Of a stretch of DNA of 64,000 bases, positions 18,019 through 18,692 are shown piece after piece. Within the stretch, counting starts at the first letter, position 1; each line of letters begins with the position of its first letter. Under the pieces are notes generated by a model that worked only from the letters and a program-made list of their open reading frames with translations, did not search any database and had not been told where the DNA came from. The translations under genes were made by a program, and so were the position numbers. Source of the stretch: an uncultured Verrucomicrobiae bacterium (GTDB taxonomy: Bacteria; Verrucomicrobiota; Verrucomicrobiia; Chthoniobacterales; Xiphinematobacteraceae); contig CAVPNI010000001.1 in NCBI GenBank assembly GCA_963706715.1, forward strand, positions 576,001 to 640,000, read 5' to 3'.

Positions 18019-18692
18019 GTCGAGTCACCCGAGGGAACTTCCCCCTCAGGTGCTCACATAACCGGACGTGAGCGTCTCCACTCATCCGGCTCTTCCCATT
18101 TTTGAAAGCCTCTGGGCTTTCTCCGTACTGTAACGATCCTCCCGCAAGCATTTCTGCTCTTGGTTGTCGCTTCAGTTTCGGCACAATGGGGCAGGCCCTT
18201 TGCTCCAGATCCGTTACGATCCTTCAACGCTAATACGGCCTGCTCCGTCCCTGTAACCCGCTTCGGTACTCTGGCGCTTATGGGGTCTCCATTTGCGCTC
18301 CTCCTTTCTCATCGGAATGACAGGTTCCCACGTTCCACACAAGAGCCTGAATCGACTTCACGCCACCTTTATGCCGGATGCCGCGTAGGCCGTTGACAGG
18401 TCACCTCCTACACTTATCCCACAGTAGAGTCGCCCTGTAGTTTTGACATCATCTATGCACGTTTCGATACGTCATCAGTGGTTCACTTGCGTTCGTCTCT
18501 TCGATTCTCACCTGATCAGGTCTTTGCCCAACCTTTTCCCATCTCGTTCACCACCACCTCTCTTAAAGGCAGCAGCAGTGGGTAGTTTGAAGTCTGCGCC
18601 TGTACGCCGTCTCCGAGGGGCCCTTTCCTCATCTCTTGTGCAACTTGGCTGCTTTAGAGGAATTCCTCCCTCTTTGCGCCTCCGTGGCACAC
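18019..18692 (-). ncRNA. ORF-less group II intron (IIB, resembling bacterial class D / RmInt1 type)
   Basis: 5' GTGTG; domain V GAGCCGGATGAG...CTCACGTCCGGTT with AGC triad and AC bulge; domain VI with bulged A; 3' AC; short domain IV; excision restores host frame. Confidence 0.92.

What the first reader, a model, noticed from the sequence alone, without database searches (positions are those of the whole stretch)
18019..18692. Apparently complete ORF-less group II intron inserted antisense in a transposase, with EBS1 matching its target
Seen (minus strand): starts GTGTGCCACGG at 18692 and ends ...GGTGACTCGAC at 18019. Domain V (18060-18092) has the AGC triad and AC bulge. Domain VI has a bulged A 7 nt from the end. 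Domain IV is closed by CCCATT/AATGGG, is under 100 nt and has no RT ORF. The hairpin loop CGACTCT (18426-18432) pairs 7/7, two by G-U, with the 5' exon end GGAGTTG. Deleting 18019-18692 restores the frame KGFKNR|QLQVTWAVLAHNLW, matching the sister IS fragment at 1441. Known: class D introns such as RmInt1 target IS elements, and IEPs can act in trans. Inference: a non-autonomous mini-intron that either homed using an IEP encoded elsewhere or lost its ORF cleanly after homing. The ORF track misses it entirely.
Basis: partly seen in the sequence, partly recalled or inferred. Interest (0 to 1): 0.85.

Follow-up and report, generated by a model that had tools for sequence, protein, structure and literature searches.

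The report
Gene-less mobile group II intron
This is a real self-splicing-type intron that has lost its own copying enzyme gene yet has spread to several sites by borrowing an enzyme from a relative; it is a clean new example of a known kind of element, not a new system.

Summary
Confirmed: 18019-18692 (minus strand) is a complete 674-nt class D (IIB3) group II intron with no RT ORF. All six domains fold and EBS1/IBS1 (7/7) and EBS3/IBS3 pair; EBS2/IBS2 pairs only 2/5. It lies antisense in an ISNCY transposase gene that is already broken. The genome holds three more ORF-less copies with the same deletion junction (94% to this one, >99% to each other), antisense in IS1-family elements. Their EBS1 differs by one base that matches the new target. 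Their host elements differ by 4-10% and the introns by 0.3-0.4% (p 1e-6 to 4e-16), so the ORF-less form moved on its own. No complete parent exists in the assembly. One cognate RT ORF survives, stripped of domains I-III and with ATA at its start position, so mobility may have ended. This copy shows early decay. The kind is known (T. elongatus TeI3; 888 of 13,041 introns in one survey), and this scan noted similar elements in other genomes. A truncated metagenome scan gave 38 near-complete ORF-less class-D-like introns in 30 clusters, of several origins. Splicing and expression are untested.

The parts
18019..18692 (-). Complete ORF-less class D (IIB3) group II intron, 674 nt (copy A of four)
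18328..18687 (-). Domain I (intron nt 6-365), with alpha 18603-18599 / alpha' 18400-18396, epsilon' 18547-18546, delta' C at 18471, delta G at 18433
   Evidence: Consensus fold and covarying helices over 45 aligned 5' halves; delta-delta' covariation read by eye; epsilon assigned from recalled IIB consensus
18457..18461 (-). EBS2 (CGUGC); pairs only 2/5 with IBS2 at this site
   Evidence: Position from relatives whose EBS2 pairs 4-5/5 and from RmInt1
18426..18432 (-). EBS1 (CGACUCU) in the Id3 loop; CGAUUCU in copies B-D
18369..18369 (-). EBS3 (A324), pairs with IBS3 U
   Evidence: Best-scoring column against the +1 exon base, 21 of 28 sequences Watson-Crick, with G-C and U-A variants; same position is G with a C exon in RmInt1
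18247..18327 (-). Domain II
18191..18243 (-). Domain III; J2/3 GGA (18246-18244) carries gamma G, partner of the last C
   Evidence: gamma assigned from recalled consensus
18095..18190 (-). Domain IV, 96 nt: DIVa with Shine-Dalgarno GGGAGG (18143-18138) kept; ORF collapsed to the hairpin GAAAGCC-CAGA-GGCUUUC (18121-18104) built from first and last ORF codons
18059..18092 (-). Domain V, AGC triad and AC bulge intact, basal G-A mismatch
18021..18055 (-). Domain VI, bulged branch A at 18025
18693..18705 (-). 5' exon end: IBS1 18693-18699, IBS2 18701-18705
18018..18018 (-). IBS3 (first base of the 3' exon, U)
16320..18972 (+). Host ISNCY/IS5-like insertion sequence; transposase pseudogene (stops near 16751 and 16950, MITE, intron); last 31 codons at 18693-18788
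   Evidence: NF033593 E 1e-27 and 2e-9, below the whole-protein cut-off
17507..17672 (.). 166-bp MITE with terminal inverted repeats inside the same transposase gene; many genomic copies
18966..19109 (-). 5' stub (46-48 codons) of an integrase-like gene cut by the IS; points towards the intron and could supply intron-sense read-through
   Evidence: 80% identical to the start of a ~354-aa gene on C4; tyrosine-recombinase call made by eye from its motifs; transcription is inference

Best explanation
A class D group II intron of a lineage that normally homes into the YADD codons of other intron RTs lost almost its whole ORF once, by an internal deletion in domain IVb that kept the protein-binding subdomain DIVa and the closing stem. 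The 674-677-nt ribozyme stayed a substrate for the IEP of its full-length relatives in the same cell. When transcribed by read-through, it was spliced to a lariat with IEP bound in trans, reverse-spliced into DNA sites chosen by EBS1/2/3 pairing, and was copied by the IEP RT (endonuclease-independent class D route). A one-base EBS1 change opened a second target, an IS1-family element, entered three times. All four insertions are antisense to transposase genes, so splicing cannot restore those mRNAs. This copy sits at a near-cognate site (IBS2 2/5) and is beginning to decay. The helpers are now broken, so the family is probably stranded or nearly so. Shown: structure, copy number, shared junction, EBS/IBS match, independent insertions, state of the helpers. 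Inferred: splicing, IEP binding in trans, source of transcription, order of events.
For: Four full ORF-less copies with precise GUGUG/GAC ends and empty alleles for both targets. EBS1 C264 pairs with target G in A; U264 pairs with target A in B-D. Intron versus host-IS substitutions: B-C 3/676 vs 52/531 (p 4e-16), C-D 3/677 vs 51/530 (p 7e-16), B-D 2/677 vs 23/533 (p 9e-7); C's host is 4/532 from an empty copy; in the host tree B and D group with an empty copy (100/100) apart from C. Same DIVb junction in A and B. Of 20 A-versus-B substitutions in nt 1-502, 5 are unpaired and 15 fall in 13 pairs, two of them changed on both sides; B keeps 13 of 13 pairs. DIVa of A folds like DIVa of the IEP-bearing remnant on C4. 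That IEP is open for 419 codons, YADD intact, TIGR04416 450 bits, 55% identical to the RmInt1 IEP and groups with it (98/96). Precedent shown experimentally for TeI3 (PMC2882425, passages).
Against: No complete IEP-bearing class D intron is in the assembly: the class D 5'-half profile finds only the four minis and two fragments. The one intact ORF (C4:3599-2343) has lost domains I-III to an ISL3 element, has ATA where relatives mostly have ATG/GTG/TTG, and is a cousin (77% over 57 nt of DIVa), not the parent. The assembly has three or more gaps. Copy A keeps only 9 of those 13 pairs, has a mismatched basal DV pair and a poor IBS2. Five ISNCY and ten IS1-family target sites remain empty. A-B differences cluster in nt 431-502 (14 of 72 against 6 of 430), which suggests recombination and blurs the order of events. 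No expression or splicing data.
Confidence: 0.8

Rival explanations
1. Copy A is the mother site: a full-length intron inserted here, lost its ORF in place, and only its descendants (B-D) moved in trans.
For: A keeps the outgroup EBS1 base C264; it is the more decayed copy; its host is 9% from the nearest empty alleles; relic R, with ORF-end sequence and an A-like 5' end, shows that a full-length parent with a matching target preference existed.
Against: A carries its own both-sided change in domain III (453/499, A-U to G-C against B and three outgroups), which suggests selection on its lineage after the split from B. This is weak: one such pair could be chance or imported by recombination. 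It is compatible with the main model for B-D.
Confidence: 0.3
2. No ORF-less mobility: full-length introns homed to all four sites, and a deletion then spread among them by gene conversion, or one filled IS1 element was duplicated by transposition. The element is a deletion relic like the RmInt1 remnant FRE652.
For: The genome is full of repeats and shows mosaic intron sequence; no intact parent; FRE652 is a described class D remnant (PMC5894124, passages).
Against: Duplication of a filled IS predicts equal divergence of intron and host, rejected at p 1e-6 or lower. Conversion would have to homogenise three whole introns to 0.4% and stop at both splice sites, and leave no full-length copy. All six domains are intact, unlike FRE652 (domains I and IV truncated).
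Confidence: 0.12
3. The mini-intron is moved by one of the abundant non-cognate intron RTs in this genome (twelve ~507-aa copies, two 563-aa, one 400-aa), or splices without protein and uses any RT.
For: Those RTs are intact and multicopy, while the cognate one is crippled; B-D insertions look recent.
Against: They are only 31-35% identical to the class D IEP and fall outside its clade; even RmInt1-related IEP/RNA swaps mostly abolish mobility (PMC4615759, passages); the mini keeps a class D DIVa.
Confidence: 0.05

Closest known systems
ORF-less TeI3 introns of Thermosynechococcus elongatus (PMC2882425, passages read)
   Same: One DIVb deletion shared by all copies, ORF-end remnants on both sides, EBS changes giving families with different targets, mobilised by an IEP in trans.
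   Different: TeI3 IEPs carry an endonuclease domain and are closest to EcI5; 17 copies with live helpers. Here class D, endonuclease-less, 4 copies, all antisense in IS elements, helper apparently crippled.
RmInt1 / RmInt2 of Sinorhizobium meliloti, class D, IIB3 (PMC4615759, PMC4238363, PMC5894124, passages read; RmInt1 fetched as L246)
   Same: Same RNA architecture and EBS1/2/3 positions; cognate IEP 55% identical; IS elements as targets; two-base IBS1-IBS2 linker in B-D as in RmInt2.
   Different: RmInt1 encodes its IEP and lies in the same orientation as its IS630-family transposase; this element is naturally ORF-less and antisense.
Full-length class D introns of Paraburkholderia phymatum, Photorhabdus and Citrobacter (L044-L046); the name P.l.I2 lineage comes from earlier scan notes, not from a call of mine
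   Same: Nearest relatives: 82-83% over the 5' half, IEP 77-80% to the C4 ORF, one clade with the minis (99).
   Different: They carry the ORF and sit in YADD codons of other RT genes; the minis have other EBS1 and EBS2 sequences.
ORF-less bacterial group II introns in surveys (PMC4424553, PMC3245105 passages; PMC8919778 passages and section 6)
   Same: ORF-less, in a genome with a related IEP; 888 of 13,041 introns in 14,506 genomes lacked an IEP.
   Different: The passages read do not resolve ORF-less introns by class or count their origins.

Membership tests
Group II intron (IIB) | GUGYG 5' end, AY 3' end, DV with AGC triad and bulge, DVI with bulged A | tested here: met
   basal DV pair is mismatched in this copy
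Group II intron (IIB) | Six-domain fold with covarying helices and alpha-alpha', delta-delta' contacts | tested here: met
Group II intron (IIB) | EBS1-IBS1 and EBS3-IBS3 pairing | tested here: met
   7/7 and A-U in all four copies
Group II intron (IIB) | EBS2-IBS2 pairing | tested here: inconclusive
   2/5 in this copy; 4/5, 3/5, 4/5 in B, C, D with a two-base linker (C scored by hand at the same register). Reported dispensable for splicing (PMC5894124 passage)
Group II intron (IIB) | Self-splicing or IEP-assisted splicing to a lariat | not testable with these tools
   No RNA holder listed
Bacterial class D / IIB3 | RNA homologous to class D introns | tested here: met
   Nests among ORF-bearing relatives; same EBS layout as RmInt1
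Bacterial class D / IIB3 | Cognate IEP in the RmInt1 clade, RT-X without endonuclease | tested here: met
   Tested on the C4 remnant, since the intron has no ORF: 419 aa, ends after the thumb with an ..F(A/V)HW tail as RmInt1, clade support 98/96 against three other RTs of the genome
Non-autonomous ORF-less introns (TeI3-like) | Single shared ORF deletion in DIVb, DIVa kept | tested here: met
Non-autonomous ORF-less introns (TeI3-like) | Several independent insertions at EBS-matched sites | tested here: met
Non-autonomous ORF-less introns (TeI3-like) | Functional related IEP in the same genome | tested here: inconclusive
   One open cognate ORF without domains I-III and with ATA at the start position; no complete parent; assembly in 4 contigs
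Non-autonomous ORF-less introns (TeI3-like) | Mobilisation in trans shown experimentally | not testable with these tools
   needs a retrohoming assay

The most novel reading that the evidence does not exclude
Class D introns repeatedly throw off streamlined, SINE-like mini-introns of one design (DIVa and Shine-Dalgarno kept, ORF collapsed to its closing hairpin) that persist as mobile lineages, retarget by EBS change and are far commoner than RT-based catalogues show. In this genome such a mini left the RT-YADD target of its kin and inserted antisense into two IS families, where splicing cannot rescue the transposase.
Probability: 0.45. Interest if true: 0.5.

Novelty: new member of a known kind. 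Interest (0 to 1): 0.32.

Why it matters
It is a tidy natural record of a ribozyme losing its gene, staying mobile as a parasite of its relatives, switching target by a one-base EBS1 change, and being stranded when the helpers broke. It gives a ready pair of natural variants (A decayed, B-D intact) for testing trans-mobilisation in endonuclease-less class D introns, and shows that RT-anchored annotation misses such elements. The mechanism itself is established.

Tried and rejected
Relatives: no match to the intron DNA in 60 of 60 related genomes searched (4 same genus, 73-99% complete) and none to the cognate IEP in 4 of 4 congeners; not found in those searched, so no strain comparison was possible. 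Sequencing runs: no RNA holder listed; three soil DNA runs of one study held only short intron pieces, mostly other introns, one 200-nt contig identical to 18242-18441, none bridging a junction; not used as evidence. A metagenome pattern specific to this lineage's DIV found 0. Strand bias against GC skew: mixed and weak at the four filled sites, uninformative. Promoter scan: three minus-strand sigma-70-like sites upstream are three copies of one 90-bp repeat, 9/12 matches, not independent; two weak terminator-like hairpins lie on the same strand near the intron. EBS2 registers other than the homologous one give no better match for this copy. L124 and L041 were first taken for RmInt1 and are other class D-like introns; L246 is RmInt1. 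Simon et al. 2008 (PMC2525955) was not held; Dai and Zimmerly 2003 was seen only as a reference title, so whether ORF-less class D introns are listed there is unchecked. Supplementary tables of PMC8919778 were not opened and may list such elements. A Pfam scan of the integrase stub failed on a wrong frame in the second query and was not repeated.

Full report
Observation. The 674 bases at 18019-18692, minus strand, begin GUGUGCC and end GACUCGAC. Rfam finds a D1-D4 model (90.9 bits) and the DV-DVI model (49.7 bits) inside it and nothing else in the window at gathering level. A consensus fold over 45 aligned 5' halves (copies A and B plus 43 relatives) gives domain I at nt 6-365, II at 366-446 and III at 450-502, with covarying helices and an alpha-alpha' pair; domains IV-VI fold as expected. 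EBS1 pairs 7/7 with the exon, EBS3 is A324 against a U, and delta-delta' is G-C. EBS2 was placed from relatives and from RmInt1; in this copy it pairs only 2/5. Removing the intron restores the transposase frame exactly between two codons, and five empty alleles span the junction. The fragment at 1441 begins just after the junction.

Setting. The window is G000:C1:576001-640000 of a 3.04-Mb, 4-contig genome. Its 16S gene looks verrucomicrobial to me (recognition, not a database test), and two congeners have 0.9-Mb genomes. It is rich in mobile DNA: 30 DV-DVI matches and 16 RT matches. The host element is an ISNCY/IS5-like IS at about 16320-18972, already broken by stops and a MITE. The intron is antisense to it. 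Upstream on the intron's strand lies the stub of an integrase-like gene cut by the IS, a possible source of read-through (inference).

Copies. Three more complete ORF-less copies exist: B (C2:335868-336544), C (C3:890409-889733), D (C3:566607-567284), 94% identical to this one. They sit antisense near the end of an IS1-family transposase gene (family recognised from the reading frames and from the window's own IS1 hit), with ten empty or partial alleles. Their EBS1 is CGAUUCU against exon GGAAUCG; copy A has CGACUCU against GGAGUUG. The introns B, C, D differ at 2-3 of about 676 positions, their hosts at 23-52 of about 531 (Fisher p 9e-7, 4e-16, 7e-16), and C's host is 4 of 532 from an empty copy. 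This rules out spreading by duplication of a filled IS and points to three separate insertions of the short form. A and B share the same DIVb junction: the Shine-Dalgarno and the first ORF codons pair with the last ones around a four-base loop. Between A and B, 15 of 20 substitutions in nt 1-502 fall in 13 pairs; B keeps all 13, A keeps 9. By outgroup, A has derived pair-breaking changes at 388 and 437, and at 634 it breaks the basal DV pair kept in B-D; it also has one both-sided change (453/499). Differences cluster in domains II-III, so recombination is possible.

Helper. A profile of class D 5' halves finds only the four minis, a 300-nt fragment and a weak remnant in the genome; tblastn finds one whole cognate ORF (C4:3599-2343), a 3' fragment (C3) and a distant piece. 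The C4 ORF is open for 419 codons with YADD, is 55% identical to the RmInt1 IEP and groups with it. It follows an ISL3 end with no domains I-III beyond and has ATA at the usual start position; its three closest relatives also lack a standard start there and have frames open 83 codons upstream, a stretch that C4 has lost. Its DIVa folds like A's. So a suitable IEP was present; whether it is still made is unknown. A 147-nt relic (C2:569643-569497) with an A-like 5' end and ORF-end sequence sits at a site that pairs 7/7 with A's EBS1 and 4/5 with EBS2 (paired by hand), probably the preferred target of the parent. The weak IBS2 at the ISNCY site may explain why the other ISNCY alleles stayed empty (inference).

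Relatives. The nearest full-length introns (L044-L046, 82-83%) lie in YADD codons of other RT genes and form one clade with the minis. A Methylomonas plasmid carries an unrelated ORF-less class-D-like intron with 7/7 EBS1 pairing. Of these 38, 21 had a GUGYG start that my script found, and 11 of the 21 showed 6-7 contiguous EBS1 pairs in the Id3-type loop, read by eye. On a quick tree of 33 short and 42 full-length rows (one per 90% cluster for the metagenome set; C and D left out) the short state needs 11 changes, at least 5 on well-supported branches, and one clade is rejected (p-AU 1.3e-6). Limits: hosts unknown, full-length rows chosen by likeness to one IEP, and one 'full' row (L041) has a truncated ORF.

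Mechanism. Most likely (0.8): one ORF deletion, then IEP-assisted splicing and endonuclease-independent retrohoming in trans, an EBS1 change that opened the IS1-family target, and later loss of the helpers. For this copy, homing as a mini is somewhat more likely than being the deletion site (about 0.3). Conversion-only (0.12) and non-cognate RTs (0.05) are weak rivals.

Comparison and novelty. It works like the TeI3 introns of T. elongatus, where a single ORF deletion, EBS diversification and trans-mobilisation were shown (PMC2882425, passages), and belongs to class D. Reviews call ORF-less bacterial introns rare and nearly always accompanied by a related IEP (PMC4424553, PMC3245105, passages); a later survey counts 888 of 13,041 (PMC8919778, section 6). 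Five literature searches turned up no class-resolved study of natural ORF-less class D introns, but the key 2003 and 2008 papers could not be read. Earlier notes of this scan describe similar elements in other genomes (unchecked leads). Verdict: real, correctly read, a new member of a known kind; interest 0.32.

Noticed in passing
L044-L046 and G000:C4:3599: This intron sublineage lacks ATG/GTG/TTG at the usual IEP start (GAG, GTA, GTA, ATA); in three relatives the frame is open 83 codons upstream and includes a Shine-Dalgarno plus ATG in domain II and a TTG at the DIII/DIV junction, so the IEP may start upstream of domain IV.
   Followed up: partly
G000:C4:1492-3657: Twintron remnant: the class D intron lies in the YADD codons of another intron's RT, and its 5' half is replaced by an ISL3 element.
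   Followed up: partly
G000:C2:569497-569643: 147-nt relic joining the first ~30 nt of the intron to the ORF end and DV-DVI, between two convergent genes, at a site matching EBS1 7/7 and EBS2 4/5.
   Followed up: partly
G000:C2:42781-43083 and C2:39667-39715: Two adjoining pieces of another class D intron copy with a different EBS1, split 3 kb apart and inverted.
   Followed up: partly
G000, RT hits: A second intron family with a ~507-aa RT is present in 12 copies, ten identical over their aligned length, apparently recently active; two other RT types in 2 and 1 copies.
   Followed up: no
window 17507-17672: 166-bp MITE with ~26-bp terminal inverted repeats, dozens of copies and shorter variants across the genome.
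   Followed up: partly
window 19310-19600: Three tandem ~90-bp units of a dispersed repeat, each with a sigma-70-like site on the minus strand.
   Followed up: no
L131, L134, L136, L138, L139, L147, L150, L157, L171, L174, L188, L190, L193: Metagenomic ORF-less introns that appear to start UUGUG/UUGCG instead of GUGYG; nine are preceded by the same GGGUC, suggesting an altered 5' end or a fixed target.
   Followed up: no
L095:264-980: An ORF-less intron lies directly upstream of a full-length class D intron in an Acidobacteriota MAG; near-identical ones occur in three metagenome loci (L158, L191, L197).
   Followed up: no
L042:1949-2606 (CP157007.1): Independent 658-nt ORF-less class-D-like intron on a Methylomonas plasmid, EBS1 7/7 and EBS2 5/5.
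   Followed up: partly
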